Part shown: positions 35,110 through 61,586 of the stretch, piece after piece | Layout: each line of letters opens with the position of its first letter | How positions within the stretch are numbered: the stretch's first letter is position 1 | The notes under the pieces: generated by a model | What the model was told of the DNA's origin: nothing | The model's input: only the letters and a program-made list of their open reading frames with translations | Database searches by the model: none | Translations under genes and position numbers: made by a program | NCBI GenBank assembly: GCA_000004985.1 | Contig: GG738884.1 | From: Naegleria gruberi | Taxonomy: Eukaryota | Strand: one strand, 5' to 3' | Length of the DNA: 64,000 bases

Positions 35110-35259
35110 TTTTTTAAAATGTTTATTTTGCAATTATACTAATATTAACTTTCAATTGTGATATTTACAATGAGAATTGTAATGAAAGCCCAAGAAAGTA
35201 TTCTGGAAAGTGAAGATTTATTTGTGCCTACCAAAATCATACACTATTCTTCATATAAC

Positions 35260-38932: not shown

Positions 38933-39314
38933 CTTGTTAATCCGATAGAGTTTGATAATATTAAAAACTTGATGATGATAACAAAAATTTTAGGGTTTGA
39001 TGTTGCGAAGATTTTTTTGTATTTATTTTTTCGTTTTTTCTTCCAATTCTTTTCTATTTTATTTCTTTCGGCCTTAAAATAGATTCGAATTAAGGAATGA
39101 ATAGAAAATTGACTTTTTAATTGGTTTTGATGACGAATAATCTCTGCTTATTGGCGCTGTTTTAAAGGGCTGATTTTTGAATTAGAAATGATTTTATTGT
39201 TCATACAATTAGTTCAATTAGAATATACAGTTTGTTGTTTCCTCGTTTCGTGGTGTCAAAAATTAAAGAGTTTAAATAATCAAAATATCGAATAATTATT
39301 CTATATAATACTCA

Positions 39315-40571
39315 TTATACATTCAATGATGTATTATTGAGTGGATTAACTGTTTCAGTATTTTCCTTACTCTTCTTTTCTCTCTTTCTTTGTTTGGCAA
39401 AGAGACAAGTTGAGGCACAGCAGAACCAGCAACAACAGACAAAGGCCATGAAACCACAAACCAGAATTGTCAATACACACAGGCCAAACATTGCCAAAGC
39501 AACCATGAGAGGAGCGGCAGCAATATTGTCTTTAAGGGTTGAAAAATCTTGGAAAACTGGCATAATCTTGTCAACTATGAGTTTTGTCGAGTAACCTTCC
39601 ACTCCTCCTCTAACAGCCAATAATAGGAGAAAAACTGCAGTAAAACCAATGACAATCATTGAAACAACAAATCTATTTTTGGTATCAATCTTACTTTGGG
39701 AATTATCACACATTGAGGAAACTGCCAATAAGGTTGCACCTGCACAACATAGCATGACAGCAAGGAAAGTCACTGCTTGTCCAACAATGACCATAATAAA
39801 GATTGTCTTATTATTGGCATGGTCAGTTGGATCGTATCCAATGGTTTGCAATGAGTTGAACAAGACAATGGCAGCCACTTCAACAATTGAGAATAAACAA
39901 ACAAGTGTAAGCATTGGACATGCACAGACGAAACTGAAACATCCACAAATAGTCTTGGAGAGGGATGATTTGTCCTGAATACTTCTTGGACTAGCAATCT
40001 TTTCTTGTGGCATTTCTTCATTATTCAATGCAGCAACAGTTCCAGTTCCTTTCAAGGAAATTCCTCCAACCTGTTGTTGAGGAGATATCTCAGTACTTGT
40101 ATTCATCACTGTCGAATAAATATTATTATTCCTATTGGCATTTGGATCAAATTTCGATTGTGAATAGGAGGGTGGCTTTTCTGCCTTTTCCTGTTGTTGT
40201 AGAGCTTGAGCTGCAGCAGAATCCCTCGAAGGTGAAACACTCACTGCATTATATTGTCCAGAATTTCTATTATTCAAATGACTTCTTATTGAATCAGTTG
40301 GTGAATGGGCTGCACTAAATCTCCTCAGTGGATCCAAAGCATCACCTCTAATAGCTCCAATAGGTTGTTGTTGAAGGGAGAATCGATTGTGTGCTGCTGG
40401 GTTGTTGTTGATTCCTACTGGTGATGGAGTGGATGGAGTATGATGATTCGGTGATGGATAAACATTTGTATTGACAGCATTTGGTAATGTGGAGGCGTAG
40501 AATGGAGATTGGTCCATTGCTATGGAAGCTCGGAATGAAGGAGGTGGACCAGTTGGAGGTGATGATGACAT
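39315..40571 (-). CDS. Pro/Ser-rich N-terminal, 4-TM C-terminal membrane protein with a Cys-rich tail (hypothetical)
   Basis: ORF with ATG at 40571. The N-terminus reads MSSSPPTGPPPSF. Four hydrophobic helices span aa 200-380, followed by CCCWFCCASTC, a possible palmitoylation cluster. Confidence 0.45.
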   Translation of the reverse strand: MSSSPPTGPPPSFRASIAMDQSPFYASTLPNAVNTNVYPSPNHHTPSTPSPVGINNNPAAHNRFSLQQQPIGAIRGDALDPLRRFSAAHSPTDSIRSHLNNRNSGQYNAVSVSPSRDSAAAQALQQQEKAEKPPSYSQSKFDPNANRNNNIYSTVMNTSTEISPQQQVGGISLKGTGTVAALNNEEMPQEKIASPRSIQDKSSLSKTICGCFSFVCACPMLTLVCLFSIVEVAAIVLFNSLQTIGYDPTDHANNKTIFIMVIVGQAVTFLAVMLCCAGATLLAVSSMCDNSQSKIDTKNRFVVSMIVIGFTAVFLLLLAVRGGVEGYSTKLIVDKIMPVFQDFSTLKDNIAAAPLMVALAMFGLCVLTILVCGFMAFVCCCWFCCASTCLFAKQRKREKKSKENTETVNPLNNTSLNV

Positions 40572-44522: not shown

Positions 44523-46122
44523 GTCACAAAAACACAACATTCTCCTCATCTTTCGTCGATTTGTAAGTTTCGGCGGGTGTGCCTTCTGCAATAGACGAAT
44601 GGTAGAGTTGATGGAATTTTACAGATCGCTCACACAGTTGAACATTGTACCAATTGTTGTTTATCCGGAAACTGAGGAAAGAGGAGAAGATTTTTTCAAT
44701 TCTGTAAGTTTACTACTGTTCAATGTTCAATAATATTAAATATTAAATACTATATTTACAATAATAATTAACTATTACTATTGAATATTTAACAACTTAC
44801 AAAAAAAATATTTAAAGTGGGAAATTCCCGAAATTTCATCACTCATTCGCGTTCCCGATCCAAACAATGAATTCGCCACTGTTTTTGATATTTACTCCGG
44901 CTCAGTTTCCAAAAAAGTAATCCTGACCTATCTCATTCCACAACTACTACTCACCAAAATGGATGGATTCTCACAGGAACGTAAGAAGAGGGATGAATAC
45001 CATGGGAAAAGTTTCTACATTCGACCTGCAATGTTTCTGATTAGGAGAGGGAAGGTCATCCATTCGTGGCGATTGAATTATGCCGATCATTGTCCTAAGG
45101 TTTTGGAAGAAATTGTTTTGAAATTGGATTTGAAAAGTGGTGGAGGTGATGATTTGGAAAGTTTGAAAATGAATGAGAAAAATGTTGTGAAAATTGAAAG
45201 TAAGAAAGTTATTGGAAAGGAAGAAGAGATGTTGAATGAAGTTTCTAATGAAAATGAAACAAGGAAGGAAGAATGTCAAAATGTAATAATGGAAATGGAA
45301 TTGAAAGAATGTGAATCTCAAATCAAGGAACAAATTCAAATGGAAGAAACTAAACTTGACGAATCTACCCTTCAAACCATTGAAATTTCCACACAAATCG
45401 ACATGCCAATCATTGACACTTCTAGAGAAATTCCAATCTACAAGAGAAAACAAGCAAGCTCATCATTGGAAATAATCACACCAACTGAAAAGAAGGAAAA
45501 TGAAAAAATTCAAACAATCAAAGCAAAGAAATCTCTCCAACCTAAATATTCCTGTTTTGGAAATCGAAATGTGGTAGGAGATTCGGATTTGAACATGTTG
45601 GTAGTTTTGGAAAATCCGAAACTTCGTAAATATTTCAAACTGTTTGCACATATGGAATTTAATATTGAGAATATTCTATTTTGGGAAGAAGTTAATACTC
45701 ACTACAAGCCAATTGCTTCATTTTCCAAATTTGACAAGACGAAATCAATTGCTACAAGTATTGGAAACCTTTTCCTATTCGATTCTCATTCAGTCATGCA
45801 CGTAAATACTTCGGATAAATTAAGGGAACAAGTAAGGGAACAAATTCAATTTCATTTCGAATCAAAATCCATTACTGAACTATTACCATCGAAATATAGA
45901 GTTAATAGATCATTAGAAGACACTGCTGTCGATCCACTTTCGAATACACCAGAAGAATCTGACAACATTTCACAACTTTCAATTGCTGATCGATTTAATG
46001 AAACAGTTACTGGAATATTTGATCCCATCATTAACGAAATGTTATCCTCTTCCATACAGGACATGTTTTTAAGATTCAGGACAAGTGATTTATTCTCCCA
46101 AATGATTTCTTCAGTAAAATAA
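44523..46122 (+). CDS. Thioredoxin-fold (PRXL2/AhpC-TSA_2-like, CxxC) :: RGS-domain fusion protein. The 5' end is lost in the gap. Exons are 44523..44703 and 44818..46122.
   Basis: The frame is open from the gap edge: ...ILLIFRRFVSFGGCAFCNRRMVELMEFYRSL, which resembles the PRXL2 motif VLFVRRPGCVLCREEA. A GTAAGT donor lies at 44704 and acceptor tttaaag at 44817. The thioredoxin fold continues (YHGKSFYIRPAMFLIRRGKVIHSW), followed by an acidic linker and an RGS domain (LENPKLRKYFKLFAHMEFNIENILFWEEVNTHYKP...FDPIINEMLSSSIQDMFLRFRTSDLF). Confidence 0.6.
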
Positions 46123-48582: not shown

Positions 48583-49068
48583 TTAATTGAAACCCAACAA
48601 TTCAATTTCAAAAACAAGAGTAGAATTTGGTGGAATGCTTGGAGGTGCACCTCTTTGACCATATCCATAAGTTGAATCCAATTCAAAGATACTCTTTTCT
48701 CCGACCTTCATTGAAAGACAAGCATGTTCCCATCCACTAATAACTTGATGAGCACCTAATTTGAATTCAAAAGGTTGATTTCTAGTACGAGAGCTATCAA
48801 ATTGAGCACCTGTTGATTTAAGAGTTCCTACATAATGAACACTGACTGTATTTCCGTTTGATGGAGAAGCAGCATCATCCTTTGCAGCAGTGATAATCTT
48901 CTTCTTTACCAATCCGTCTTGAGTCAAAGAAATCCACAAAGCAGCCTTCTTTTGTTCCTTTGCATCCTTCTTCTTTTGTTTTTGTTCATTCTTCTTGGCC
49001 ATATCTTGCAAGAACTTTAAATCATCATCATTTTGCTTTTTTGTTGTTGGGGCCTTCTTGTTGGTCAT
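48583..49068 (-). CDS. FKBP-type peptidyl-prolyl cis-trans isomerase with a Lys-rich N-terminal extension (FKBP25/nucleolar Fpr-like)
   Basis: The C-terminal 105 aa read GNTVSVHYVGTLKSTGAQFDSSRTRNQPFEFKLGAHQVISGWEHACLSMKVGEKSIFELDSTYGYGQRGAPPSIPPNSTLVFEIELLGF, the canonical FKBP fold signature. The N-terminal region is KKQNDDDLKFLQDMAKKNEQKQKKKDAKEQKK. Confidence 0.85.
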   Translation of the reverse strand: MTNKKAPTTKKQNDDDLKFLQDMAKKNEQKQKKKDAKEQKKAALWISLTQDGLVKKKIITAAKDDAASPSNGNTVSVHYVGTLKSTGAQFDSSRTRNQPFEFKLGAHQVISGWEHACLSMKVGEKSIFELDSTYGYGQRGAPPSIPPNSTLVFEIELLGFN

Positions 49069-49290
49069 TTTTTTTAAATATTAATTTTCAATTTTTTAAA
49101 AATAGAAATTTCACGATTTCCTTCAGAATTTTTCAATCTTTTCATGAATTTTATTAAGGTGATAATCTGTTCGAAACGATTGATCTATTGGTTGTATCAA
49201 TTCTCAAAGGAACAATTACATGGAGGAAATCAAGTTACAATAGAAATTTAGTTTACTTTCAATTTATTGTGAATTAGAAAATGAGAAACC

Positions 49291-49752
49291 TTAATAAACT
49301 GGCCGTATTTGGCGACCATCATCAATGTTTGAATTGTTGAGAAGTGAATCATTCAGAGAAGATTTTTCATTCTTCTCCAAATCCTTCTTCTTTTCACTAG
49401 CTCTCTTTTTACATCGATCTGAAATTTTAATAAAACTAAAGAGAAGCATAGTTGAAAAACAACAACATGAGCATACGAGAATTACTGAACAAGTAATTAT
49501 TTCATCAACATTATATTGTATCTGGTGAGAATAGTAAATTCCATACGCTGAACCTCCAACTAGTGCCATTGCAATTAGAAGCGCAAGAATGAAAAAGCAA
49601 TAAAGTACTGAGGGTGGTAATGGTCGAACTGTTACGGGGGGAAGTTGTCGAGCTGGGACAACTGGCTCGTAGACCTCCTCTACTCTATGGACTGTGATAA
49701 TGTAATTTCCTTTCTTGATTACTGACATTTTTTTATGTGATTTGAATTGCAA
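49291..49752 (-). CDS. Small membrane protein (hypothetical)
   Basis: ORF with one strong TM helix (LYCFFILALLIAMALVGGSAYGIYY), a second Cys-rich hydrophobic stretch (SVILVCSCCCFSTMLLFSF) and an acidic/Ser tail. Confidence 0.35.
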   Translation of the reverse strand: MQFKSHKKMSVIKKGNYIITVHRVEEVYEPVVPARQLPPVTVRPLPPSVLYCFFILALLIAMALVGGSAYGIYYSHQIQYNVDEIITCSVILVCSCCCFSTMLLFSFIKISDRCKKRASEKKKDLEKNEKSSLNDSLLNNSNIDDGRQIRPVY

Positions 49753-49981
49753 GTAAGAATAACCAACTATTTTAAACCTCTGCAGACGAAACGTGATTTC
49801 TCAAAATAGATAATGCCATAACGTGATTTGAATTATGAATTTGAATATTAGAATCTCTTTTCATTCATTAGTTGATGATGACAATTCATATTGTGTAAGA
49901 TCAAATCTGAAAACAAGTTTATGTGTATTTTTTAAGGGTTGTGTGTACAATATTTACAGTAAAGGTAAGAAGTTTAGTTTT

Positions 49982-51370
49982 TTACCTGTAGAATGATGTG
50001 ACCATGTCAGTAACAGAATCCTCATAAACTCCAATAATGTGCATGAGAATGATACCAGCAGTGACGCTTCCAATGGCATAGTAGAGCTTGGTTGGGAAAT
50101 CAGAAGTTTGAGCATCCTTATGAACCTTCTTTTCAGTCTTTTCATCTTCGTTTTTAATTTCTGGAACGGCCACTAATTCACTACTTTCCACTAATTGATC
50201 CAAGATTATTGGAATCATGGATGTGGCAATGTACATAAAACTACCAGCACTCAAAGCAACCAGATGCTTTTCATTAATAAACAAAAATTCAAATCCATGA
50301 TCAGATGTCAAAATTAATCCAAATAAGCAACCAACAACTGACAAGACTCCACTCAGGAAATTGAAGAATAGAGCCTTCTTTACACTAAATCCAGCACTCA
50401 ATAAAATTCCATAATCTGACAATTCTTGTGGAATTTCATGCATACAAATACACAAAACATTGGCAATACCAACAGGAATTGAAACTTGAAAAGCACCTGC
50501 AATTCCTGCACCATCCATAAAATTGTGAATACCATCTCCAATCAAATTGATCCATCCTACTGCCTTAATATGAGAATGACCGTGGTGGTGAGAGTGTCCT
50601 CCTAATTTCACCTCATTGGCCTTCTCCTTCTTTTCCTCTCTCCTTTGACGAACTCTGAGATAGACCTCAATCAACAAACACAAGATGAATCCAAATAATA
50701 TGACAAATGAGTGACCAGAAGCTTCCAAATTATGAACATGTTTTCCTCCACTGCCATGACTGTGACCACTATCATGGCTGTGTTCTTCCGAAGCATAGAG
50801 AATTGGCAACAAGTGCAAGAAACAATCTCCTAACAAGGATCCAACAGCCAAACAACTCAATATAAATTGTAAATTACTCATTGTTGCACCATTCTCTTGT
50901 CCTCTAATACCATAAAACAGTAAACTAGCCCCAACAAAAGACAATAAAGAAACTCCAAAGGAACTTCCCAACGAATACATCCAAATCGATAATTTAGAAG
51001 GTTGATGTTGTTGCTTTTCTTCATGAAGGTTGTGATCATGGTGATGATGATCTCCTTCCTTGTGTATTTCTTTTGTTTCCAATAAATGTCGATGAATTTG
51101 CTGATGTTTTTCATTGTTATTATTTGTATTAACTTCCTTGTGCTCATAATGATGCTCGTGATGCTCATGTTCGTGATGATGCTGGCACTTGTGTTTCTCC
51201 GAAGAGTGTTGTTTATGATGATGGTGATGAGATCCATGAGCATTCACGAGTGAAGATTCGTAATGATGAAAATTTAATAACAACAAGCTCGCCACCAACA
51301 CAACTCCCATCAGCAATAACAAGACGGCTGAGAATCTTCGTGGCCGCTTCTGTTGTTGTATTAAAGACAT
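49982..51370 (-). CDS. ZIP (SLC39) family zinc transporter, LIV-1-like with His-rich loops
   Basis: The signature HEIPQELSDYG matches the ZIP HExPHExGD motif. There are eight predicted TM helices. The extracellular N-terminus and cytoplasmic loop are His-rich (HGSHHHHHKQH..., GHSHHHGHSH). Confidence 0.85.
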   Translation of the reverse strand: MSLIQQQKRPRRFSAVLLLLMGVVLVASLLLLNFHHYESSLVNAHGSHHHHHKQHSSEKHKCQHHHEHEHHEHHYEHKEVNTNNNNEKHQQIHRHLLETKEIHKEGDHHHHDHNLHEEKQQHQPSKLSIWMYSLGSSFGVSLLSFVGASLLFYGIRGQENGATMSNLQFILSCLAVGSLLGDCFLHLLPILYASEEHSHDSGHSHGSGGKHVHNLEASGHSFVILFGFILCLLIEVYLRVRQRREEKKEKANEVKLGGHSHHHGHSHIKAVGWINLIGDGIHNFMDGAGIAGAFQVSIPVGIANVLCICMHEIPQELSDYGILLSAGFSVKKALFFNFLSGVLSVVGCLFGLILTSDHGFEFLFINEKHLVALSAGSFMYIATSMIPIILDQLVESSELVAVPEIKNEDEKTEKKVHKDAQTSDFPTKLYYAIGSVTAGIILMHIIGVYEDSVTDMVTSFYR

Positions 51371-51710: not shown

Positions 51711-53339
51711 ATGATGCAAGTTCATCAAAAAAAAATGCAAGATTTATCCATTCTCATTCCACCAGAATTATGGCGAACTGTTTATTCATTCCTCAACACA
51801 CCATATCGACCACATTTTGAAAGAGTCAATCTCCTATTCAGATCTTTATGTCTCGAAGAGGAAAGAAGAGAAATCAATGAAATATTTCAACTCCACAATA
51901 GGTATTTGTTAAAGCCACTATGTGAAGCACCTGTTGCAGAGGAAAAGATTAGAAAAATTGAAGAAATGATTCAGAGAAAGATTCCTTTCCACTTGAGAGA
52001 ATTTATTAAAGTATCGGATGGAAGAATCAAGACTATTAGAAGAAGAGAAATGCCTTCAGTGATTAATATGTCTCCTCATTGGAGTAATTGCTTGTATAGT
52101 TTTGATAATTGGTGTTTTTCTGGAAGATTTTTGACAATTTCAACTTTTCACAAACAAAAAACAGAGTTTCGTATTGACTTGGAGAATGGGAAAGTAGAAA
52201 CTTGTTCAAACTCATGTAGAGAAGGGATTTCTGTAAAGGAGTGGTTGAAGATGAGCTTTGATTGTTCAAGAACTATTAATCCATTTAATATTGACAAGCT
52301 ATGTCATGAATCGAATAGAAATGATCTGAAATCAATTTTAAGACATTGTGGGTATTTATTTGAAATATTACCAGAAAATCTCAGAAAAGATAGAGAACTT
52401 GTAAAAAGTGCTTTAGTTTCGTCCAATTTACCTTTCCGATTAACCAGCAAAGAGATTGCAGATGACACTGAATTAGTGAGATGGTATTTCGAGAATGGAA
52501 ACACTAAATTTCAATATCTTTCAGATAAGTTTCGACAAGATAAGAATCTAATACTCAAATATTCCAAAGAATGGGAAGATGCTCATGAATCCCTTTACAC
52601 CGATACGGAAATATTATTGCACTATTTAAAGACGAGTAGACAGAGAATAGTTCCAGAGTTGAAAACTCTCTCAGAAGATTTGATTATTGAAGCCACCAAA
52701 TATGGAAAAGAAGTTAACATTGACAATTGCTTTTCTAATGAGCTTGTTCTAAAGATGTTGGAATATACAACACCCAAGGAAAGAAGTTTACTTGGAAAGA
52801 ATCTCAAAAACCATGAAAAGAGCCTTGATGAGAGAGTTCTGAAAAGACTTTTTGAAGTGAATCCAATTTTTGTGTGTCTCAATTTTGAAAATGAGAATTT
52901 CAAGTTGACAAAAGAACAACTATTACTTGACTTGACTGAATTGGGAGAAAACTTTAAGAATCTTCCTTATCAATGGAGAATGGATAGAGAGGTAGCAAGA
53001 GCAGCCACTCAAAAACAGTTTTATAATTACATATATCTTGATAATGAATTGGCAAATGACATTGAATTCCTGGCACCAATTCTTGAAAATGCAAAAATTC
53101 CACTTTCATTGCCACAACAATATTTCAATCAATTACTTCGAGTTATTAATAAGGATGAGGAAATATTGAGGAAGATACTAACCAATAATCCATCATTACT
53201 TGCTCATACTCCCAATTTGGATGAGGAATTTGTTAATTCTTTGGATTTTAAATATTGTAGTGGAAGATTTATTGAAATCTTGCAAAGGACTAGTTTCGAA
53301 CAATATTGCGAGCACTACAAGCAAAATTATGATTATTGA
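51711..53339 (+). CDS. Hypothetical protein with an F-box-like N-terminus and repeated ~35-aa helical repeats (possibly DUF4116-like)
   Basis: The N-terminus LSILIPPELWRTVYSFLNTPYRP is F-box-like. Repeats of the form LPENLRKDRELVKSALVSSNLPF... / LPYQWRMDREVARAATQKQ recur. The family call is weak. Confidence 0.4.
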   Translation: MMQVHQKKMQDLSILIPPELWRTVYSFLNTPYRPHFERVNLLFRSLCLEEERREINEIFQLHNRYLLKPLCEAPVAEEKIRKIEEMIQRKIPFHLREFIKVSDGRIKTIRRREMPSVINMSPHWSNCLYSFDNWCFSGRFLTISTFHKQKTEFRIDLENGKVETCSNSCREGISVKEWLKMSFDCSRTINPFNIDKLCHESNRNDLKSILRHCGYLFEILPENLRKDRELVKSALVSSNLPFRLTSKEIADDTELVRWYFENGNTKFQYLSDKFRQDKNLILKYSKEWEDAHESLYTDTEILLHYLKTSRQRIVPELKTLSEDLIIEATKYGKEVNIDNCFSNELVLKMLEYTTPKERSLLGKNLKNHEKSLDERVLKRLFEVNPIFVCLNFENENFKLTKEQLLLDLTELGENFKNLPYQWRMDREVARAATQKQFYNYIYLDNELANDIEFLAPILENAKIPLSLPQQYFNQLLRVINKDEEILRKILTNNPSLLAHTPNLDEEFVNSLDFKYCSGRFIEILQRTSFEQYCEHYKQNYDY

Positions 53340-54290
53340 TGTAAAGGTCAACTTTAAATGTTCTGGTTGACCTTCCAAGGATGTGTGGTGGCATCCAGAT
53401 TAGAAAGTATTAGAAACTTCTTAAGCATGGATATCTAGATATGGAAAGCGAATATTTCTATAAATGCATTTTTGTATGAGCAACTTGGGAAAGTGAAGAT
53501 ACGATACAACGAAACTGTAATGATACGTTTGTATGCCACGTCTGGAGATTGGCTTCGCACATGATTTTAAGCAATTTGGCAAAACAACTTTTTTGTGTTT
53601 TAAAGTGCTTTATTTTGAAACAACACAAGAAATCAAACAACAATCTTTTGATAATTAGCTGAAGATTGAGCCAACTTTGAAATCTTTTCAAATAACATCA
53701 AGTCTTTATTCAATAATTGCCAAATCCTTAAAATTTTCATCTCACGATCTGGCAATTTCTGCAAACTAGTTGAGAATAGGTTTAGTTTAGTCTTGTCCAC
53801 CTTCTATTTCAGTATTTTGTTGAAACACTGAAAACCGCTACATATCCATCTCCACTAATTTTAAAAATCTAGTCATCAAATATGGAATATTTAAAAATCT
53901 CTATATAAAACCCTTCCTTTACTTATTGGCGATCGCTACAATGCAATTCCTTAATAGCTTTATTCGAAACTTAGAAAGTCTTTATAGCCAAGCTTCAAAC
54001 ACTATCAAAAAAACATTCAAACTGGTTTAGAGCATTTGTTCAGTCTTTAATTCAACGTTTCGTACAAAATAGACAGCTTACTTTAATTTATTAGAAACTC
54101 CAAGCTAACCTAAAGGTTTCGAATACTTCATCCCTCCTATTTCAAATTTACTTCCTCGATCAGTCAATAAGAAACTTGGTCATTGTACATTTCAGATAAG
54201 CTGTTATCTAAAAGAAATTTAATATTTATGTAGATTGCTGACAAGTTGCTTATTTGGAAACACCTAATTTATCTAAAACAACATTTTGCA

Positions 54291-55151
54291 ATGTGTCTTC
54301 ACACCCAGAAAAAAATGTCAAGTCCTTCAACCTCAGTTTCGAATAATTTGGTTTCGTCTGGTTCATTTCACTTTCACAATTTTGATCCAAAAGCAAATGA
54401 AGAGAAGAAACGATTGAATAGAGAAATGATTGCAAAGAATACACATAATGGAATGGCATTTAAACCAAGCAAGTATATGGTTGATATTCAACATTCGAAT
54501 AATAATCAAAGACAAGTTTCACCTGCATCTCCAGTTTCGTATAGAACAAGCCGATCAAATTCTTCTTCGAACAAGTCTGCTGCTAAAACGATTAGCAATT
54601 CTCATTCATCGATTTCCAAACAACACAAGCTACTTTCGAATAATCACCAATACTCTAAGAGTAGAATCTGTGAGAAACAACTGACCATTAATGCTTCTGA
54701 ATGGAACTCCATCAAGCAATCTATTGAATCAAGAAGCAGAAATGTTTCTAATTGTTCAAATTCAAGCACTCTAAGCAAATCTAGTTGTTACATTGACAAA
54801 AACTCTGTAAATGGTGATTATTCGAAAGGTTTCGTAAATTGCCCGTCCAACCGTAACTATTCAAGCAACTACCAAGTCTATTCTCCTCTGGCTCACTACT
54901 CTGAATACTCTCAAAATATATCACTAAGCAACACATCAAATCTGCCAAGTCAATTATCAATCAGCAAAACTATTCCACTAACCAGTTCAATATCACCAAA
55001 TAATGTCCCGTTCACCCGCTCCATGGCCACTCATTGTGAAAGATTACCCTCCATTCAACATTTACTTGAAACTATTCCAATAACAAAATTCGAAAGACGA
55101 AACAATAGTCAATTAAACACAGTTTCAATAATTGAATTGTTGAAACAATAA
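54291..55151 (+). CDS. Ser/Asn-rich hypothetical protein, tandem paralog A (shares a conserved N-proximal motif with 55372..56064)
   Basis: First ATG is at 54291. Motif: FHNFDPKANEEKKRLNREMIAKNTHNGMAFKPSKY. The rest is S/N-rich low complexity. Confidence 0.5.
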   Translation: MCLHTQKKMSSPSTSVSNNLVSSGSFHFHNFDPKANEEKKRLNREMIAKNTHNGMAFKPSKYMVDIQHSNNNQRQVSPASPVSYRTSRSNSSSNKSAAKTISNSHSSISKQHKLLSNNHQYSKSRICEKQLTINASEWNSIKQSIESRSRNVSNCSNSSTLSKSSCYIDKNSVNGDYSKGFVNCPSNRNYSSNYQVYSPLAHYSEYSQNISLSNTSNLPSQLSISKTIPLTSSISPNNVPFTRSMATHCERLPSIQHLLETIPITKFERRNNSQLNTVSIIELLKQ

Positions 55152-55371
55152 ATGTCATGAATTAAATTGCCTTCAAAAGATGTTAACTCTGCATAACATT
55201 AAAATTTGGAAAACCAAGATTTCCCTTCCTGCCAAGTTGTCATTCCCAAAATGGACAATTAAAAAAGTTGAAAGGCCAGTTACAGAGATAAATGCCGACG
55301 CATCTTTTATCGAATTGGTAACATCATACTAACATGAAGTGGTTTGTTTTGCATCAAAAAAAACAAAAGAA

Positions 55372-56064
55372 ATGCAACAAGACAGTCCTCGTCAAGTTTT
55401 GAATGCAAATTGTAATTATTCAAGCTCAACTGTTGTGAGTAGAAGGAAGGGAAGGGGAACGTCTGGAAAATGTAGTGGAATGATGGAGAGTCATCATTTG
55501 GTTTCGAATAATAATCCATGGTTGAGGTTTCATTCTTATGATCCAGTTGAACATGAAGAAAAGAAGAGAAAGTTGAGAGAATACTCAAAACGAAACGCAT
55601 ACAAGGGTTTACACTTTAGACCAAGCAAGTATAATCAAGAGGTAGTTAAATTTTCAGTACAAGCTCCTAACATGTTGAGTGAGCAGAATCTAACAGAAAG
55701 GTCTGTATTAAAAGTTGATGAGAAGGCATGTAGTGCACATCAAGTGATCACCAACTCAAAGATACCACTCACTCATTTTCAAGTTTCTTCCATTATTCAG
55801 TTGGAATCGAATAGCTTAATTTCAACAACAAACAACATCCAAGCACCAACCGCCTCCAAATCAACATGCATTCAATTCACCCATCAAAACTCTAGAAACG
55901 TTCTTCCCTCCATAAATGAAATACTATCTCTCTCCAAAATTCAAAAAGCACCACACAAAATGATTCACAACTCATCTCTCCAAATCATCCAACAAAACTC
56001 AATCAATTCTGACAATTTTCAATTGGAAAATCTAACTCTTGCACCAATCAACATGTACTTCTAA
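55372..56064 (+). CDS. Ser/Asn-rich hypothetical protein, tandem paralog B
   Basis: First in-frame ATG is at 55372. Motif: RFHSYDPVEHEEKKRKLREYSKRNAYKGLHFRPSKY, the same F-x-x-DP-x3-EEKKR-x-REx-x3-N-x3-G-x-F-(K/R)-PSKY pattern as its upstream neighbour. Confidence 0.5.
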   Translation: MQQDSPRQVLNANCNYSSSTVVSRRKGRGTSGKCSGMMESHHLVSNNNPWLRFHSYDPVEHEEKKRKLREYSKRNAYKGLHFRPSKYNQEVVKFSVQAPNMLSEQNLTERSVLKVDEKACSAHQVITNSKIPLTHFQVSSIIQLESNSLISTTNNIQAPTASKSTCIQFTHQNSRNVLPSINEILSLSKIQKAPHKMIHNSSLQIIQQNSINSDNFQLENLTLAPINMYF

Positions 56065-56208: not shown

Positions 56209-58140
56209 ATGGGAAAGAGAGAATTATACAGAAATAAACAAGCTTTGGCTAATGCTGCTCCTCTGGCTCAAGCACACTCCCAACCGCTTGGTATTACCAT
56301 CGGAGCACGTACATCTAATGTAAAGATGCCTAAGGAGGCCATTCCAGCCATCTATTATGAAAAGATTTTAAAATACATGAAAACAAAGGAAATGTTGAAT
56401 GATATTGCAGGAGCTTGCACTAAATATTTGTACAAACCATCGGATTGGAAGTATTATTACTTTGAACATCGTTGGAAGGAATATTCTAACGTGAGAAGAG
56501 CCTTGCGTAAATTAATTCAAATGGGAACACTTCAAGTCTTGTTGAGAGGAAAGTATTATAAGGAAGAGACTTCTGATCCAGAAGCTATTACAAGTGGTGG
56601 TGCCTCTTCTTCTACTGATAATAATCAATCAGCTGATGCTAGTAATGTTGCTTCCGAAGAAGTTTTACAAGTAAAAGAAGAAGAATTTGAAACTTTTGTA
56701 ATTGGAGGAAGAACATTAACTAGAAAAAAGTATGTAAAGGCTTCTTCTGTGCCATCGAATAAGAAGGCCACCACTCCAGTTGATCAAGAGGAAATTCAAA
56801 TTGAAGAAGAAGAAACAATTAATCAACAAGCAATGAATAAGAAGAATAAGAAGAAGAATAAGAAAAACAAAAAGAAGGATCCTTTTGAATTGGATGAGGA
56901 AAATGATGATCAAGATGATGGAACTTTTGATGGATTTGAAATTACCAGAGATGAGGATCGTCCACAATTATATGAATTGAATGAATGGAAAGATGATCCA
57001 AAGAAGAATAAGAAACAAAATAAGAAACAAAACAAAAAGCAAAGTTCTAGTTTGGAAATTGAAGAAGATACTTTTGTAAAGGAAGAAGAAGGTGGTGATA
57101 AGGGAATTCCTTCTAAAGCTGTACATATTGATTTTAATAATATCAAAAAGATTGTAAAGGCAACTGAAAAGATTGATTGTGCTGAAAATGAAGCAGTTCA
57201 GAATATTACTCTCAACTTGACAAGAAAATCAAAGGAAGAATCATCCAGCTCTCAGAAAACTGTGATTCAGGTTGTTAAAGGTGACATGTTGGAAACTGCA
57301 ATTAGTTTGAGAAGGATTTGTAAACTTAATCCACTCGTTTTGGTCTCTGGTAGCCAAACTGTTCCAGGAGGATCTTTTGCTAAGGGAGGAAATACTCAAG
57401 AGGAAGATTTCTGTAGAAGATCATCATTGTCTTTAGCAATTGCTGATCCATACAGATTTGATGAAACTAGAGAGTGGACTTACCCATTACCTGAATTTGG
57501 AGGAATTTATACACCAAATGTTGTAGTGTTAAGAGGTCCAAAGAGCGATGGATATGCCTTCTTGGATAGAACATGGGCTTGCTCAATGTTTATCACCTAT
57601 CCTTATGTGAATCCACCAACAGAGAAGAGAAAGGTAGCCGATCCAAATACTGTCATTCCAAATGAAGAGGACGATGACGAAGAAGTAACAACTGAGAATT
57701 TCCTCTCTACCAAATTGTCCAACTCAATGAAGAAGAAGATTGCTGCCTACTTTGATGTTGCATTAAAGAAGGGTCATGATTCTCTTGTTATTGGTGCTCT
57801 TGGTTGTGAAAATACTCACTCCAATCCTGCCTATCATATTGCTCAACTTTTCAAGGAAGTATTGGCAAGTGAAATTTTCAAGGACAAGTTCAAGGTTGTC
57901 ATTTTCTCTATTTTGGTTGATAAGGAAACTGATAGCAAGTTGGCCAATGAAGGTGGTGCTGACGATGTGGAAGAAGTTGAGGATAATGATGACGTCGAAG
58001 ATCAACAAGATATCTCAACCAATCTGCTCGATACTTCAATTGAAAGAAAGAATAATCTTTCAGTATTTTCCAAATTATTCCACGGAAAGGAAGAAGCTCC
58101 AACAGCTGAAGAATTCATTCCAACCATTGAATGTAAATAA
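56209..58140 (+). CDS. Bacterial-type poly(ADP-ribose) glycohydrolase (DUF2263/TIGR02452 macrodomain) with an N-terminal unknown domain and a K/N/E-rich linker
   Basis: The C-terminal 300 aa carry the PARG catalytic signature GGG-X6-8-QEE (LVLVSGSQTVPGGSFAKGGNTQEEDFCRRSSLSLAI) and the second conserved block LVIGALGCENTHSNPAYHIAQLFKEVL. The linker contains NKKNKKKNKKNKKKD and KKNKKQNKKQNKKQ repeats. Confidence 0.65.
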   Translation: MGKRELYRNKQALANAAPLAQAHSQPLGITIGARTSNVKMPKEAIPAIYYEKILKYMKTKEMLNDIAGACTKYLYKPSDWKYYYFEHRWKEYSNVRRALRKLIQMGTLQVLLRGKYYKEETSDPEAITSGGASSSTDNNQSADASNVASEEVLQVKEEEFETFVIGGRTLTRKKYVKASSVPSNKKATTPVDQEEIQIEEEETINQQAMNKKNKKKNKKNKKKDPFELDEENDDQDDGTFDGFEITRDEDRPQLYELNEWKDDPKKNKKQNKKQNKKQSSSLEIEEDTFVKEEEGGDKGIPSKAVHIDFNNIKKIVKATEKIDCAENEAVQNITLNLTRKSKEESSSSQKTVIQVVKGDMLETAISLRRICKLNPLVLVSGSQTVPGGSFAKGGNTQEEDFCRRSSLSLAIADPYRFDETREWTYPLPEFGGIYTPNVVVLRGPKSDGYAFLDRTWACSMFITYPYVNPPTEKRKVADPNTVIPNEEDDDEEVTTENFLSTKLSNSMKKKIAAYFDVALKKGHDSLVIGALGCENTHSNPAYHIAQLFKEVLASEIFKDKFKVVIFSILVDKETDSKLANEGGADDVEEVEDNDDVEDQQDISTNLLDTSIERKNNLSVFSKLFHGKEEAPTAEEFIPTIECK

Positions 58141-58258: not shown

Positions 58259-59131
58259 TTAATTACTCTTGTCTGATTCTTCGCTCTTCTTGGCATTCTT
58301 GATGAGCCATTGTAAAGTCTTGTCAATATTTACAGAATTTTTAGCACTAATTGAGTAGCAAGATACTTCTCGTCCAGTAATAAGTTTGAGATCCAATTTG
58401 TCAATTAATTCTTGTACACCTCTAGCATTTGGTAAATCATTCTTATTTCCAAGTACCAGTAAAGGAATAGTCGAAAGAGAGGCTTTTCCAACCAATTCAT
58501 GAAGCTCCTTTTTGGCTACTTCCAATGTTTGTTCATCACTTGCAGAGTCCACAACATATACAATAGCTCCAACTCCTCTACAATATCTCTGTGTTTTTTG
58601 AAATGTAATATTATAACAATCATAATATTAGATAGAATGTGATGACAACAAGTATGAAATTAAAATTAAATATATTACGTTCATATCAAATACATACCTC
58701 CCACATGTTTCTGAATTTGGATTGACCTATTATTGTCAATTTAAATCATCGTTAGTATCATGATAATCCAAAGTTATTAGAAAAATATTAAATGATTAGA
58801 ATAACAATTTGTCATCACAGTTGAACAACATATGATGGACCATCATCATAGTTAATAGTGATGATTATAATAATAAATAATTGAATAGTTTTCAAAAGAA
58901 TGACATACCTCCGATATCCCACAACTTGATTTCTACACCTCCTTTACTCACTTTTCGCATATTAAAGCCAATAGTTGGTATAGTATCCTCATTCATCTGA
59001 CCAAATGAAATTGTATTTACAAGTGTCGTTTTACCAGCATTTTGCAATCCGACCAATGTAAGTTCCAACTCTTGCTTCCAGAAGAGTGATTTAATCCAAT
59101 CCATCAATGATTTCAAAGCTGCTGCTAACAT
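58259..59131 (-). CDS. ARL8: ARF-like small GTPase ARL8. Three exons: 59131..58909, 58726..58698 (a 29-nt micro-exon), 58588..58259.
   Basis: Spliced product: [75 protein letters not shown]|QSKFRNMWE|[20 protein letters not shown]...[12 protein letters not shown]...[20 protein letters not shown]. This closely parallels ARL8 ([14 protein letters not shown]...IPTVGFNMRK...[20 protein letters not shown]...GNKRDLPNAL...CYSISCKE..NIDITLQWL). Both donors are GTATGT. Confidence 0.85.
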
Positions 59132-59531: not shown

Positions 59532-61586
59532 ATGGGACAAAACCATTCAGGTGGATCAAATTCTGTGGGTGGAATGGGAGGAACACTAGTTGGAGATCAA
59601 TACAAACCACCAGATCGTACCACAAACAATCTAGCTTCCTCCTTTCATACCAAAGAATCCATCAAAATTCAACAGCAGCAACAACAACAACCCGATTCAA
59701 ATACAAACAACAATAATACATCGTCAGGTAATCTTGTTCTGATAGCAGCATCCAACACTTCCGATGCCTTGCTCATGTCCATCGCAGAGTTAGTCATTGT
59801 TCTCCAACAATTGGGTGAGATTCATCTCGTTGTCTTGCTGGAGGAAATTTCTCGTCACTACTACGAGATTCAAATTGGAGGCAATTTTTCTTCTCTGGAA
59901 GCAATTGCTGCTGCTAACAATAACACACAAGGAAATGGCGCCACTTCTCCAACACAAAATTTACAGGGTGGTGGCCCTCTCGCCAGTACATCATTTAAAA
60001 ATGGCGCCACTGGAAATTATGGCAACTCGAATGTAGATAATGGTCTGAAGAAGTACATTAATTGTGCCAAGTATACTCCCACTTGGTTGGAAGATGAGGG
60101 TGTATTTGGAGGTGGTGGTGGTATCGGAAGTGGATCGATTGGTAGAGGGAGTAGAATTAGTATTGGAGCAACATCAGGAAATAATGGCATGGATGAAGAT
60201 GATATGGAGGAGGATTATGGTGTAAATTATAATACGGATTCTGCTTTTCAGGTCTGGTTGATTGCATTGAAGGATAGACAATTACCGAGATTTAAGAGAA
60301 AATTGGAAAAGTTATTTGTGGATAATAGTGGAGGAGCAAGGAAGGTTGCCTTCTCTTTCAATGTACAAATGTCAACCTCATCGACAAATAGTTTGAGAAG
60401 AGCTTCTTCATTCCTACACGCACAAACTAATCCAAAAACTAATTATGTCATTGATATGGATAGTAAGCAGAAATATTTTGAGGTGAGGTCAGAGATGGAA
60501 ATTATTCTCACTCATACTCTTGAGGAAATTAAAGATTTGAAAGAATGTTTGGATGCAAAGAGAAAAATCGAAGGAGGAACATCAAGTACCAGTGGAGCTG
60601 ATGTTGCCGATGTTTCGGTTCTCCTTCAAGATTTTGATTTTGAATGTAGTTGGTGGGAGAAGAAGATTGGCTCCTCCAATTTCAGTGTCAAGAAGAAGGC
60701 ATTTATTGATGCCATTGAAGAAACTTTTGCTCACTTGAAAGTCAAGTTTGAAATTGAGGTTTTGGAAGAGATTTCAGATCCAACTTGTGATGGAGTTGTA
60801 AGTGTGACAGATTTGAAAACTCTCACTAGATGGTTGGGCAGTATTTACAAGTGGAATACTGACGAATTGAAATTGAGAAATATTGCTGGAAAAGAAGATG
60901 CTGCACCAGTTATTTTCCTTCCTCATTTTTGGGGTTCAGTGACATGTTACGATGCACAAGATATTTTACAAAAGGAAGAACCTGGAACGTACATTATTCG
61001 TTTCAATGAGAACGAGCCTGGGCATTACTACATTTCATGTGTTCAGGAAAATGTTGTGGAAAATGAGGAGACTAGCTCAAATACTGGATTTTTTGCCACT
61101 CGTCAAGTGTATCACTTTGTATTGAAGAGAGGAAAAACTGAGAAGGGAGAACCTTACTATTACTTGTCCGATGCTGATAAGAGTCACAAATTCAAGACCA
61201 TTACTGAGCTACTTGATAAGAATTACTTTTTGACATTCAAATATCCATATGTCAATGACGATCTCAAGTCTGCATTTGTTTCAAAGAAGAGAGATGTCGA
61301 TGTCTTTGGTGCATTGAAGAGTTTATCAGGAGAGGGTGATGATTTGAATCCTTATCCATTTGTTGTATATAAGGGAAAGTTCAATGTTAATGAAAAGAAG
61401 AAGGAATCAGACATGAAAAAGATTGCCAATTTAGCTAAAAAGACTACTGAGCCGTCATTGGGCAATCCAGTCAATAATAATTCATCCTCAAGCATTAAAG
61501 ATCAAGAACCAGGTATGGTACGAGTGGATTCCCTCAATTTACCACTGAGTAATAGCAAGGAAGAAACTTTAGATTTATCTGAATAA
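59532..61586 (+). CDS. SH2-domain protein with an N-myristoylation motif and a Q/N/G-rich N-terminal half (possibly STAT-linker/SH2-like)
   Basis: Starts MGQNHSG (Gly2, Ser6). SH2 signature near aa 470-520: FWGSVTCYDAQDILQKEEPGTYIIRFNENEPGHYYISCV (W-x-G, FLVR-type Arg). No kinase or phosphatase domain is present. Confidence 0.6.
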   Translation: MGQNHSGGSNSVGGMGGTLVGDQYKPPDRTTNNLASSFHTKESIKIQQQQQQQPDSNTNNNNTSSGNLVLIAASNTSDALLMSIAELVIVLQQLGEIHLVVLLEEISRHYYEIQIGGNFSSLEAIAAANNNTQGNGATSPTQNLQGGGPLASTSFKNGATGNYGNSNVDNGLKKYINCAKYTPTWLEDEGVFGGGGGIGSGSIGRGSRISIGATSGNNGMDEDDMEEDYGVNYNTDSAFQVWLIALKDRQLPRFKRKLEKLFVDNSGGARKVAFSFNVQMSTSSTNSLRRASSFLHAQTNPKTNYVIDMDSKQKYFEVRSEMEIILTHTLEEIKDLKECLDAKRKIEGGTSSTSGADVADVSVLLQDFDFECSWWEKKIGSSNFSVKKKAFIDAIEETFAHLKVKFEIEVLEEISDPTCDGVVSVTDLKTLTRWLGSIYKWNTDELKLRNIAGKEDAAPVIFLPHFWGSVTCYDAQDILQKEEPGTYIIRFNENEPGHYYISCVQENVVENEETSSNTGFFATRQVYHFVLKRGKTEKGEPYYYLSDADKSHKFKTITELLDKNYFLTFKYPYVNDDLKSAFVSKKRDVDVFGALKSLSGEGDDLNPYPFVVYKGKFNVNEKKKESDMKKIANLAKKTTEPSLGNPVNNNSSSSIKDQEPGMVRVDSLNLPLSNSKEETLDLSE

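What the first reader, a model, noticed from the sequence alone, without database searches (positions are those of the whole stretch)
54291..56064. Tandem paralog pair sharing a conserved ~35-aa motif (F-x-x-DP-x3-EEKKR-x-RE...N-x3-G-x-F-K/R-PSKY)
Two adjacent same-strand S/N-rich genes carry an almost identical short conserved block near their N-termini but are otherwise divergent low-complexity proteins. Both even contain the same GTTTCGAATAAT nucleotide string encoding VSNN. This points to a lineage-specific family expanded by tandem duplication. The motif could be a DNA-binding or interaction module.
Basis: seen in the sequence. Interest (0 to 1): 0.5.

Follow-up and report, generated by a model that had tools for sequence, protein, structure and literature searches.

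The report
Naegleria-only tandem orphan gene pair
Two neighbouring Naegleria gruberi genes are real tandem duplicates of a fast-evolving, mostly disordered protein found only in Naegleria; they share one short helix-forming motif of untested function, so this is a genuine but fairly ordinary lineage-specific family.

Summary
The window is Naegleria gruberi. Gene A (54315-55151, NAEGRDRAFT_70525, 278 aa) and gene B (55372-56064, NAEGRDRAFT_70526, 230 aa) lie head-to-tail. They share a 38-48 aa block: 22/48 identical, BLASTP E 3e-10 with composition correction, 0 of 500 shuffles reach the score. The rest of the two proteins is not significantly similar.

A motif HMM run against 1.84 billion protein representatives found only two more true members, one each in N. 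lovaniensis and N. fowleri. Both are single-copy and sit next to the same FKBP-ZIP gene block that lies just upstream of A/B here. So this is a genus-restricted family, and the evidence favours a one-to-two tandem duplication in the N. gruberi lineage.

AlphaFold2 predicts both proteins to be about 75-80% disordered. The only confident element is a 19-20 residue helix over the motif core (DP-x3-E-x-K...RE). A second strain keeps both reading frames and the motif cores unchanged, while the rest evolves quickly.

No Pfam or PDB relative exists. Resemblances to eIF4G, p27 and bZIP failed testing.

Most likely reading: a disordered regulator or adaptor with a docking helix that may also carry a nuclear localisation signal. 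The function itself is inferred, not shown. Interest is low to moderate.

The parts
54315..55151 (+). Gene A = NAEGRDRAFT_70525 (XP_002674414, D2VNJ7), 278 aa, S/N-rich and mostly disordered. An alternative in-frame ATG lies at 54291.
   Evidence: 100% match to the N. gruberi predicted protein. The ORF is listed. The second-strain ortholog P0008 uses the 54291 start. AlphaFold2 mean pLDDT is 47.8.
54366..54476 (+). Conserved N-proximal motif of A (FHFHNFDPKANEEKKRLNREMIAKNTHNGMAFKPSKY, residues 18-54).
   Evidence: BLASTP and tblastn. Invariant columns across four family members are F, H, D, P, E, K, R, E, G, F, P, S, K, Y.
54387..54446 (+). Predicted alpha-helix in the A motif (residues 25-44).
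   Evidence: AlphaFold2 helix H25-44. Ten-residue block pLDDT is 84 (residues 21-30) and 90 (31-40). It is the only confident element.
55122..55148 (+). C-terminal tail of A (VSIIELLKQ-stop), resembling the ...SISISELLN-stop tail of the N. lovaniensis and N. fowleri proteins.
   Evidence: Alignment. Tail-versus-tail score is reached in 59 of 20000 shuffles. AlphaFold2 gives a short helix at 272-276; the last block (271-278) has mean pLDDT 60.
55152..55371 (.). A-B intergenic spacer with no detectable similarity to the region upstream of A. It is highly variable between strains.
   Evidence: In 55047-55371, which is mostly this spacer, 14% of positions differ (including indels) between the window and strain contig L001. 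The B motif and the remainder of B differ by about 1.9%.
55372..56064 (+). Gene B = NAEGRDRAFT_70526 (XP_002674415, D2VNJ8), 230 aa. A possible alternative start is ATG 55480, because 55372-55479 is poorly conserved between strains.
   Evidence: Cluster member P0009 is the NCBI protein of 230 aa. The 94%-identical strain ortholog P0002 keeps the ORF with an in-frame 6-nt indel. AlphaFold2 mean pLDDT is 44.2.
55522..55632 (+). Conserved motif of B (LRFHSYDPVEHEEKKRKLREYSKRNAYKGLHFRPSKY).
   Evidence: Between strains there are 0 amino-acid changes in the motif core and 2 silent changes.
55543..55599 (+). Predicted alpha-helix in the B motif (residues 58-76).
   Evidence: AlphaFold2 helix H58-76. 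Ten-residue block pLDDT is 77 (residues 51-60), 92 (61-70) and 72 (71-80).
55903..55926 (+). B internal LPSINEIL. It may correspond to LPSIQHLL in A (55039-55062) and to the SIxELL tail. Support is weak.
   Evidence: Score is reached in 253 of 5000 shuffles against the A segment and in 975 of 5000 against the N. lovaniensis tail. AlphaFold2 gives a low-confidence helix at 181-188.
54336..54347 (+). Shared 12-mer GTTTCGAATAAT in A, read as VSNN.
   Evidence: It is out of register with the B copy in the alignments.
55501..55512 (+). Shared 12-mer GTTTCGAATAAT in B, read as VSNN.

Best explanation
SHOWN. A and B are two real, separate protein-coding genes of Naegleria gruberi. They are tandem paralogs of a small family detected only in the genus Naegleria, with one copy in N. 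fowleri and one in N. lovaniensis at a partly syntenic position.

The proteins are 230-300 aa, S/N/T-rich and predicted to be largely disordered. They diverge very fast. Only two parts appear constrained:
- A roughly 38-aa N-proximal motif: [FL]-x-F-H-x-[FIY]-D-P-x3-E-x-K-[KR]-[RK]-x2-R-E-[FMY]-x7-G-[LM]-x-F-[KR]-P-S-K-Y. Its centre is a confidently predicted 19-20 residue, D-P-capped, highly charged helix.
- Less securely, a short SIxELL helix at or near the C-terminus.

INFERRED. The family works as a disordered regulator or adaptor built from short linear motifs. The N-proximal helix and its flanking aromatic residues fold on contact with a conserved Naegleria partner. Its K-[KR]-x-[KR] basic cluster probably doubles as a nuclear localisation signal. 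The C-terminal phi-x-x-L-L-like tail would be a second contact point.

After duplication in the N. gruberi lineage, copy A kept the ancestral layout (motif near the N-terminus, SIxELL at the very C-terminus). Copy B kept the docking motif but remodelled its C-terminal part. That fits sub- or neofunctionalisation, for example competition for the same partner with a different output.
For: - Organism and annotation.
- Motif similarity is significant and not compositional.
- Only two copies occur in the 64 kb window.
- Family breadth: profile HMM against 1.84e9 representatives found only N. lovaniensis C9374_003589 (E 3.7e-8) and N. fowleri FDP41_011600 (E 9e-6) beyond A and B.
- Synteny: both of those loci are single-copy and lie downstream of FKBP(-) and ZIP(-). 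The window has FKBP at 48583-49068(-) and ZIP at 49982-51370(-) just upstream of A/B. The genes that follow the family gene in N. fowleri and N. lovaniensis map to window positions about 37.4-40.3 kb.
- Coding status: a second strain (97.5-98.8% DNA identity) keeps both ORFs, has an in-frame indel in B, and has no amino-acid change in either motif core.
- Fast evolution: between strains A shows 0 synonymous and 4 non-synonymous changes, and B has dN/dS of about 0.54. The neighbouring PARG gene has about 0.03.
- Structure: AlphaFold2 gives one confident helix at the homologous place in both proteins (A 25-44; B 58-76) and pLDDT below 50 for about 75-80% of residues.
- C-terminal tail of A against N. 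lovaniensis: p of about 0.003 by shuffling.
- Timing: within the motif, synonymous difference between A and B (pS 0.58) is lower than between A or B and N. lovaniensis (0.89-0.91), while dN is equal at about 0.5. This fits a duplication after the species split followed by rapid protein divergence (only 38 codons, and codon-usage differences may confound it).
Against: - There is no functional evidence of any kind. No expression data could be reached. No paper mentions the gene identifiers, and no supplementary files were held for the two Naegleria RNA-seq papers.
- The NLS reading is weak. A (KKRLNR) does not fit the minimal K-[KR]-x-[KR] consensus, and the basic cluster sits inside a predicted helix.
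- Conserved residues are spread around the helix rather than on one face (my own helical-wheel arithmetic). The motif might instead be a tiny autonomous fold.
- The AlphaFold2 alignments had only 4-6 sequences.
- The C-terminal motif in B is not statistically supported.
- The timing of the duplication rests on single-copy status in two related species plus 38 codons. A loss in the N. fowleri/N. lovaniensis ancestor is not excluded.
- Unannotated copies elsewhere in the N. gruberi genome could not be searched.
Confidence: 0.55

Rival explanations
1. The motif is a nucleic-acid-binding basic helix, and the proteins are Naegleria-specific transcription or RNA regulators. Low-complexity S/N-rich regions would act as activation or condensate-forming domains, and the SIxELL tail as a cofactor-binding LxxLL-like box.
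For: The helix core is rich in invariant or conserved K, R and E. The architecture is disordered and S/N-rich. The first part of the motif superficially resembles the start of a bZIP basic region, DP-x-EKRRK-LERN (from my own memory).
Against: No Pfam DNA- or RNA-binding family matches at E<=1 for the whole proteins or E<=10 for the motif alone. The helix is followed by G-x2-F-[KR]-P, which breaks helices, so there is no zipper or second helix. Net charge is only moderately positive because invariant E residues alternate with K and R. A single 20-residue helix without a dimerisation element rarely gives specific binding.
Confidence: 0.15
2. Copy B is a decaying or functionless duplicate, and only A carries the family's function.
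For: B lacks the SIxELL tail at its C-terminus. Its first 36 codons differ by 10% between strains, all amino-acid-changing or indel. Its overall dN/dS is about 0.54.
Against: The B ORF is intact in two strains and the indel is in-frame. The motif core has 0 replacement and 2 silent changes. A evolves just as fast outside the motif, with 4 non-synonymous and 0 synonymous changes. B retains every invariant family residue.
Confidence: 0.12
3. The helix is a degenerate eIF4E-binding motif, and the proteins act like 4E-BPs or eIF4G as translational regulators.
For: The best (non-significant) PDB hit of the family profile is the eIF4E-binding segment of human eIF4G1: PLNLEEKKRYDREFL against P-x3-E-E-K-K-R-x-D-R-E-F (E 0.78).
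Against: The defining Y-x4-L-phi signature is absent. The Tyr position is L or K in all four proteins. The L-phi positions are I-A, S-K, M-A and M-A. The E-value is not significant.
Confidence: 0.03
4. The similarity is an artefact. Either low-complexity composition makes unrelated ORFs look alike, or the ORFs are not genes.
For: Both proteins are S/N-rich, and most of their length shows no significant similarity.
Against: The motif is not low-complexity. It scores E 3e-10 with composition correction, and 0 of 500 shuffles reach the score. The same motif is conserved in two other species, with saturated synonymous divergence between N. gruberi and N. lovaniensis. The ORFs are conserved between strains.
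Confidence: 0.02

Closest known systems
N. fowleri FDP41_011600 (XP_044567383, 253 aa) and N. lovaniensis C9374_003589 (XP_044555719, 303 aa), both uncharacterised 'hypothetical proteins'
   Same: They carry the same 38-aa motif, with 47-51% identity to A and B and all 14 invariant positions. They have the same S/T-rich architecture with no detectable domain. A shares the same SI(S/I)ELL C-terminal tail. They lie in the same neighbourhood next to FKBP-ZIP.
   Different: They are single-copy. Their N-terminal extensions before the motif are longer (45-60 aa). Outside the motif and tail there is no significant similarity to A or B. B lacks the terminal tail.
Taxonomically restricted, intrinsically disordered regulators built from short linear motifs (a general class; examples are 4E-BPs, Cip/Kip inhibitors, securins)
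   Same: They are small, fast-evolving and mostly disordered. Constraint is confined to one or two short segments, one of which is predicted to form a helix.
   Different: No sequence-level membership in any of these families could be shown. The partner is unknown.
eIF4G / 4E-BP eIF4E-binding helix (Y-x4-L-phi)
   Same: A local string resemblance, EEKKR-x-DREF, in a helix-forming segment.
   Different: The family lacks the Tyr and the Leu-phi that define the motif. The E-value of 0.78 is not significant.
Cip/Kip CDK-inhibitor domain (Pfam PF02234), linker helix of p27
   Same: B reads DPVEHEEKKRKLREY and p27 reads GPVDHEELTRDLEKH (p27 sequence from my memory). Both have a roughly 20-residue helix followed by aromatic residues.
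   Different: hhalign probability is 0.24% and Pfam gives no hit. There is no W-N-F-D-F or P-L-x-G-x-Y-x-W CDK-binding hairpin.

Membership tests
Unnamed Naegleria FH-x2-DP...F[KR]PSKY family (A, B, FDP41_011600, C9374_003589) | N-proximal 38-aa motif with invariant F, H, D, P, E, K, R, E, G, F, P, S, K, Y | tested here: met
   Both A and B carry all invariant positions. Profile scores are 110 and 117 bits.
Unnamed Naegleria FH-x2-DP...F[KR]PSKY family (A, B, FDP41_011600, C9374_003589) | Otherwise domain-free S/N/T-rich protein of 230-300 aa (disorder was predicted only for A and B) | tested here: met
   AlphaFold2 pLDDT is below 50 for 204 of 278 residues in A and 190 of 230 in B. Pfam finds no families in any of the four members.
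Unnamed Naegleria FH-x2-DP...F[KR]PSKY family (A, B, FDP41_011600, C9374_003589) | SI(S/I)ELL at the extreme C-terminus | tested here: inconclusive
   A has it (p of about 0.003). B has only an internal LPSINEIL about 45 aa from its end, and this is not significant (975/5000).
Unnamed Naegleria FH-x2-DP...F[KR]PSKY family (A, B, FDP41_011600, C9374_003589) | Conserved genomic position (orthology by synteny) | tested here: inconclusive
   The FKBP-ZIP block is adjacent in all three species. The intervening and downstream genes differ (DHHC or AKR against DUF4116; 511-aa gene against PARG), and the downstream block is relocated to about 37-40 kb in the window.
eIF4E-binding proteins (4E-BP / eIF4G canonical motif) | Y-x4-L-phi, with Tyr and Leu-hydrophobic contacting the dorsal surface of eIF4E | tested here: not met
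   When aligned to eIF4G1 KKRYDREFLL, the Y position is L, K, K, K. The L-phi positions are IA, SK, MA, MA. E is 0.78.
Cip/Kip/KRP CDK inhibitors (Pfam CDI, PF02234) | Match to the CDI profile, including the W-N-[FY]-D-F hairpin | tested here: not met
   No Pfam hit at E<=1 or E<=10. hhalign against p27 gives probability 0.24%. The hairpin is absent from the sequences.
bZIP transcription factors | Basic region N-x7-R continuous with a heptad leucine zipper | tested here: not met
   No Pfam bZIP hit. The predicted helix ends after about 20 residues at G-x2-F-[KR]-P, and no heptad leucines follow.
Classical monopartite NLS | K-[KR]-x-[KR] in an accessible segment; import by importin-alpha | tested here: inconclusive
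   B (KKRK), N. lovaniensis and N. fowleri (KRKK) fit the pattern. A (KKRL) does not. Import itself cannot be tested with these tools.

The most novel reading that the evidence does not exclude
The 38-aa motif is a previously undescribed docking module. Through it, a Naegleria-specific class of disordered regulators would engage a conserved core machine, for example a cyclin-CDK, eIF4E, PP1 or importin. This would make it a lineage-specific functional analogue of regulators such as Cip/Kip or 4E-BP, which are hard to find by homology in Heterolobosea. The N. gruberi duplication would then have created two competing regulators.
Probability: 0.08. Interest if true: 0.5.

Novelty: new member of a known kind. 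Interest (0 to 1): 0.2.

Why it matters
Both genes are annotated only as 'predicted protein', and the motif is in no domain library searched here. The work therefore defines a small, undescribed protein family restricted to Naegleria: two copies in N. gruberi and one each in N. fowleri and N. lovaniensis.

Such families are common in every protist genome and rarely change how we think about biology. Modest value could come from two directions:
- A member exists in the pathogen N. fowleri with no detected relative outside the genus, including in the host. If it proves essential, it could serve as a marker or a handle for genus-specific biology.
- The pair is a clean small example of an intrinsically disordered protein that keeps one docking helix while everything else turns over, with a recent duplicate for comparison.

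Without expression or interaction data, it remains an ordinary orphan family.

Tried and rejected
1. Word-indexed protein searches with A and with B found only A itself and, for B, a 94%-identical strain variant. The same search with the 4-sequence motif alignment returned nothing at all, not even the query proteins, so it is uninformative.
2. P0004, a hit of the motif HMM, is a TPR-like repeat protein. It matches only the A-specific string EEKKxxxREyIAKN six times and is spurious.
3. The metagenome scan gave three loci that match only motif residues 2-20 or 2-12. The one I read, L004, is a 52% GC contig with GSFHFHNIDP and no further motif. I judged all three spurious, though L005 and L006 were not read. 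The viral contig scan gave none.
4. Pfam on the whole proteins, on the motif alone and on the orthologs gave nothing. PDB profile searches gave only chance-level hits: NDUFB5 at E 1.5 and eIF4G1 at E 0.78.
5. The resemblance to the p27 KID was tested by hhalign and rejected.
6. I compared the sequences by eye with several motifs from memory and dropped each because spacing or key residues do not fit in all members: the CENP-C motif, RVxF (PP1), LxxIxE (B56; only B fits), the arch-interacting motif LFx-phi-D, ABBA, D-box, PIP and SxIP. No tool test was run on these.
7. Similarity outside the motif between N. gruberi and N. fowleri/N. lovaniensis proteins is not significant.
8. The bacterial promoter and terminator scan is irrelevant for a eukaryote and showed no enrichment.
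9. Literature searches for every identifier gave no papers. No supplementary tables were held for the two Naegleria RNA-seq papers.
10. Fold search was not run, because about 75-80% of each model is low-confidence and a lone helix gives meaningless matches.
Full report
**What is at the locus**

The window is nuclear DNA of the heterolobosean amoeba Naegleria gruberi, at about 34% GC.

- The ORF at 54315-55151 (+) is 100% identical to 'predicted protein [Naegleria gruberi]' NAEGRDRAFT_70525 / XP_002674414 / D2VNJ7, 278 aa.
- The ORF at 55372-56064 (+) is NAEGRDRAFT_70526 / XP_002674415 / D2VNJ8, 230 aa.
- I call them A and B. They lie head-to-tail, separated by 220 bp.
- The flanking genes are a DUF4116 protein (51711-53339, +) upstream and a microbial-type PARG-domain protein (56209-58140, +) downstream.

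**Check of the observation**

- BLASTP of A against B gives one significant segment: 22/48 identical, 33/48 similar, E 3e-10 with compositional adjustment.
- Smith-Waterman on the motif segments scores 110 against 24 +/- 5 for shuffles (0 of 500 reach it). The remainder of the proteins scores within the shuffle range, with 27/500 and 20/300 reaching it.
- The motif itself is K/E/R/F/H-rich, while the S/N-rich composition lies elsewhere (A: S 21.6%, N 12.2%; B: S 13.9%, N 10.0%).
- A tblastn of four motif variants against all 64 kb finds only the two copies.
- The shared 12-mer GTTTCGAATAAT exists in both genes and is read as VSNN in both. It is 15 nt out of register in the protein and DNA alignments. 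A third, unrelated copy occurs in another frame (read as FRII) inside an LRR gene at 34967(-). It is weak evidence.

**Are these real genes?**

Two metagenome contigs come from one sample (ERZ929261). They are L001, covering B-PARG-Arl, and L007, covering A. They are 97.5% and 98.8% identical to the window and evidently come from another N. gruberi strain.

- Both ORFs are intact there. B carries an in-frame 6-nt indel.
- The B motif core has no replacement and two silent changes. The A motif core is unchanged.
- Outside the motif both genes evolve quickly. A shows 0 synonymous and 4 non-synonymous differences. B has dS 0.039 and dN 0.021, a ratio of about 0.54. The neighbouring PARG gene has a ratio of about 0.03.
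- The first 36 codons of B differ by 10% between strains, all replacements or indel. ATG 55480 may therefore be the true start, which would place the motif about as close to the N-terminus as in A.

**How wide is the family?**

A two-sequence motif profile was searched with HMMER against 1.84 billion cluster representatives, with no word prefilter. It gave five hits at E<=0.001:

| Hit | Identity | E-value |
|---|---|---|
| P0002 | strain variant of B | 2.3e-29 |
| P0001 | A | 4.9e-27 |
| P0003 | N. lovaniensis C9374_003589, 303 aa | 3.7e-8 |
| P0004 | spurious TPR-like repeat protein | 1.5e-7 |
| P0005 | N. fowleri FDP41_011600, 253 aa | 9e-6 |

- P0004 matches only an A-specific string six times and has TPR-like Pfam hits.
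- Scans of JGI metagenome contigs and of viral contigs added nothing credible.
- Across the four proteins the invariant positions are F, H, D, P, E, K, R, E, G, F, P, S, K, Y.
- A, the N. lovaniensis protein and the N. fowleri protein also end in SI(S/I)ELL(N/KQ)-stop (shuffle p of about 0.003). B has only an internal LPSINEIL that is not statistically supported.
- Everything else has diverged beyond recognition between N. gruberi and the other two species.

**Synteny and the duplication**

In N. lovaniensis (L002) and N. fowleri (L003) the gene is single-copy, and no second motif occurs in 20 kb.

| Species | Local gene order |
|---|---|
| N. lovaniensis / N. fowleri | FKBP(-), ZIP(-), DHHC(+), [aldo-keto reductase(-), N. 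lovaniensis only], family gene(+), 511/516-aa gene(-) |
| N. gruberi (this window) | FKBP(-) 48583-49068, ZIP(-) 49982-51370, DUF4116(+), A(+), B(+) |

- The orthologs of the 511-aa gene and the next conserved gene lie at about 37.4-40.3 kb in the window. The neighbourhood is partly conserved with a local rearrangement.
- One copy in two species against two adjacent copies here favours a tandem duplication in the N. gruberi lineage.
- Within the motif, synonymous difference between A and B is 0.58, against 0.89-0.91 for A or B compared with N. lovaniensis. dN is about 0.5 for all pairs. This points the same way and implies rapid protein divergence after duplication.
- That comparison rests on 38 codons, and codon usage may confound it. 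Loss of a second copy in the N. fowleri/N. lovaniensis ancestor is not excluded.
- No DNA similarity survives outside the motif, so the duplication is not recent.

**Structure**

| Protein | Alignment depth | Mean pLDDT | Residues with pLDDT below 50 | Confident helix | pLDDT by ten-residue block |
|---|---|---|---|---|---|
| A | 4 sequences | 47.8 | 204 of 278 | residues 25-44 | 84 (21-30), 90 (31-40) |
| B | 6 sequences | 44.2 | 190 of 230 | residues 58-76 | 77 (51-60), 92 (61-70), 72 (71-80) |

- In both proteins the helix covers the segment from the P of D-P through E-x-K-[KR]-[RK]-x2-R-E to the residues just before the invariant G.
- The aromatic flanks (F-H-x-phi before, G-x2-F-[KR]-P-S-K-Y after) are less confident.
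- Short helices are also predicted over IELLK at the A C-terminus (last block, residues 271-278, mean pLDDT 60) and over INEILSLS in B (pLDDT about 40).

**Comparison with known families**

- Pfam gives no hit for any member or for the isolated motif.
- PDB profile searches give only chance-level hits. The best is the eIF4E-binding stretch of eIF4G1, PLNLEEKKRYDREFL, at E 0.78. The family lacks the defining Tyr and Leu-phi, so membership fails.
- A resemblance I recalled to the p27 KID linker helix was tested and rejected: hhalign probability 0.24%.
- A bZIP reading fails because the helix stops at G-x2-F-[KR]-P and no zipper follows.
- Three of the four members fit the minimal NLS consensus K-[KR]-x-[KR]. 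A does not.

**Most likely mechanism**

What is shown:
- The genes are real.
- The family is restricted to the genus as far as the searches reach.
- The two copies are tandem paralogs.
- Constraint is confined to one helix-forming motif, plus a C-terminal tail in three members.

What is inferred: these are intrinsically disordered regulators or adaptors.
- The N-proximal helix with its aromatic flanks would dock onto a conserved partner by folding on binding.
- The basic cluster may also act as a nuclear localisation signal.
- The SIxELL tail would give a second contact.
- After duplication, B kept the docking motif but remodelled its C-terminal part, so the two copies may compete for one partner with different outputs.

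I put 0.55 on this package. Confidence is high for the evolutionary part and low for the mechanism.

Rivals and their confidence:
- a nucleic-acid-binding basic helix (0.15)
- B as a decaying copy (0.12)
- a 4E-BP-like regulator (0.03)
- an artefact (0.02)

**Novelty and verdict**

No paper in the searchable library mentions the gene identifiers. No expression tables could be reached. The motif is in no domain library searched here, so the family is undescribed. Even so, a small genus-specific family of disordered proteins with a two-copy tandem duplication is a very common kind of finding.

Interest is low to moderate (0.2).

Noticed in passing
window 56209-58140 (+): A 643-aa protein with a microbial-type PARG catalytic domain (PF10021, E 1.5e-17) sits behind a long K/N/E/D-rich low-complexity N-terminal half. 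It is under strong purifying selection between strains (dN/dS about 0.03).
   Followed up: partly
window 51711-53339 (+): A 542-aa protein with three DUF4116 repeats (E 3e-14) and weak SUKH/SMI1-like hits at its N-terminus. In N. gruberi it occupies the position held by a DHHC palmitoyltransferase gene in N. fowleri and N. lovaniensis.
   Followed up: partly
window 53534-53753: A 220-bp stretch upstream of gene A is absent from the second-strain contig L007, so it is an insertion or deletion between strains. No other copy is in the window, and I saw no obvious terminal repeats.
   Followed up: partly
window 37430-40300 (-) versus 48583-51370 (-): The two gene blocks that flank the family gene in N. 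fowleri and N. lovaniensis are both in this window but about 10 kb apart and on the same side of A/B. These blocks are FKBP-ZIP on one side and the 511-aa plus 478/489-aa genes on the other. This indicates a local rearrangement in one lineage.
   Followed up: partly
L001 and L007 (ENA ERZ929261, run ERR1078381, PRJEB11402): A sample labelled as a metagenome contains contigs 97.5-98.8% identical to N. gruberi NEG-M. A closely related Naegleria strain is therefore present in that sample and is useful for within-species comparisons.
   Followed up: partly
window 58259-58552 (-): An exon encoding the C-terminal half of an Arf/Arl-family GTPase (PF00025, E 1.8e-13). It is identical between the two strains. 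The gene evidently has introns, because the N-terminal half lies elsewhere.
   Followed up: no
window 59532-61586 (+) and 44959-46122 (+): An SH2-domain protein (E 1.4e-7) and an RGS-domain protein (E 4.6e-6), both signalling genes near the locus.
   Followed up: no
window 34967-34978 (-): A third exact copy of the 12-mer GTTTCGAATAAT lies inside an F-box/LRR-like gene (ORF 34009-35133, -). It is read in a different frame as FRII, so it is unrelated to the A/B motif.
   Followed up: yes
P0004 (550 aa, from the representative library): A TPR-like repeat protein with six copies of C-E-T-x-EEKKAVWREYIAKNP. It matches the A-specific part of the helix (EEKKRLNREMIAKN) by chance and produced a misleading E of 1.5e-7 in the motif HMM search.
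   Followed up: yes
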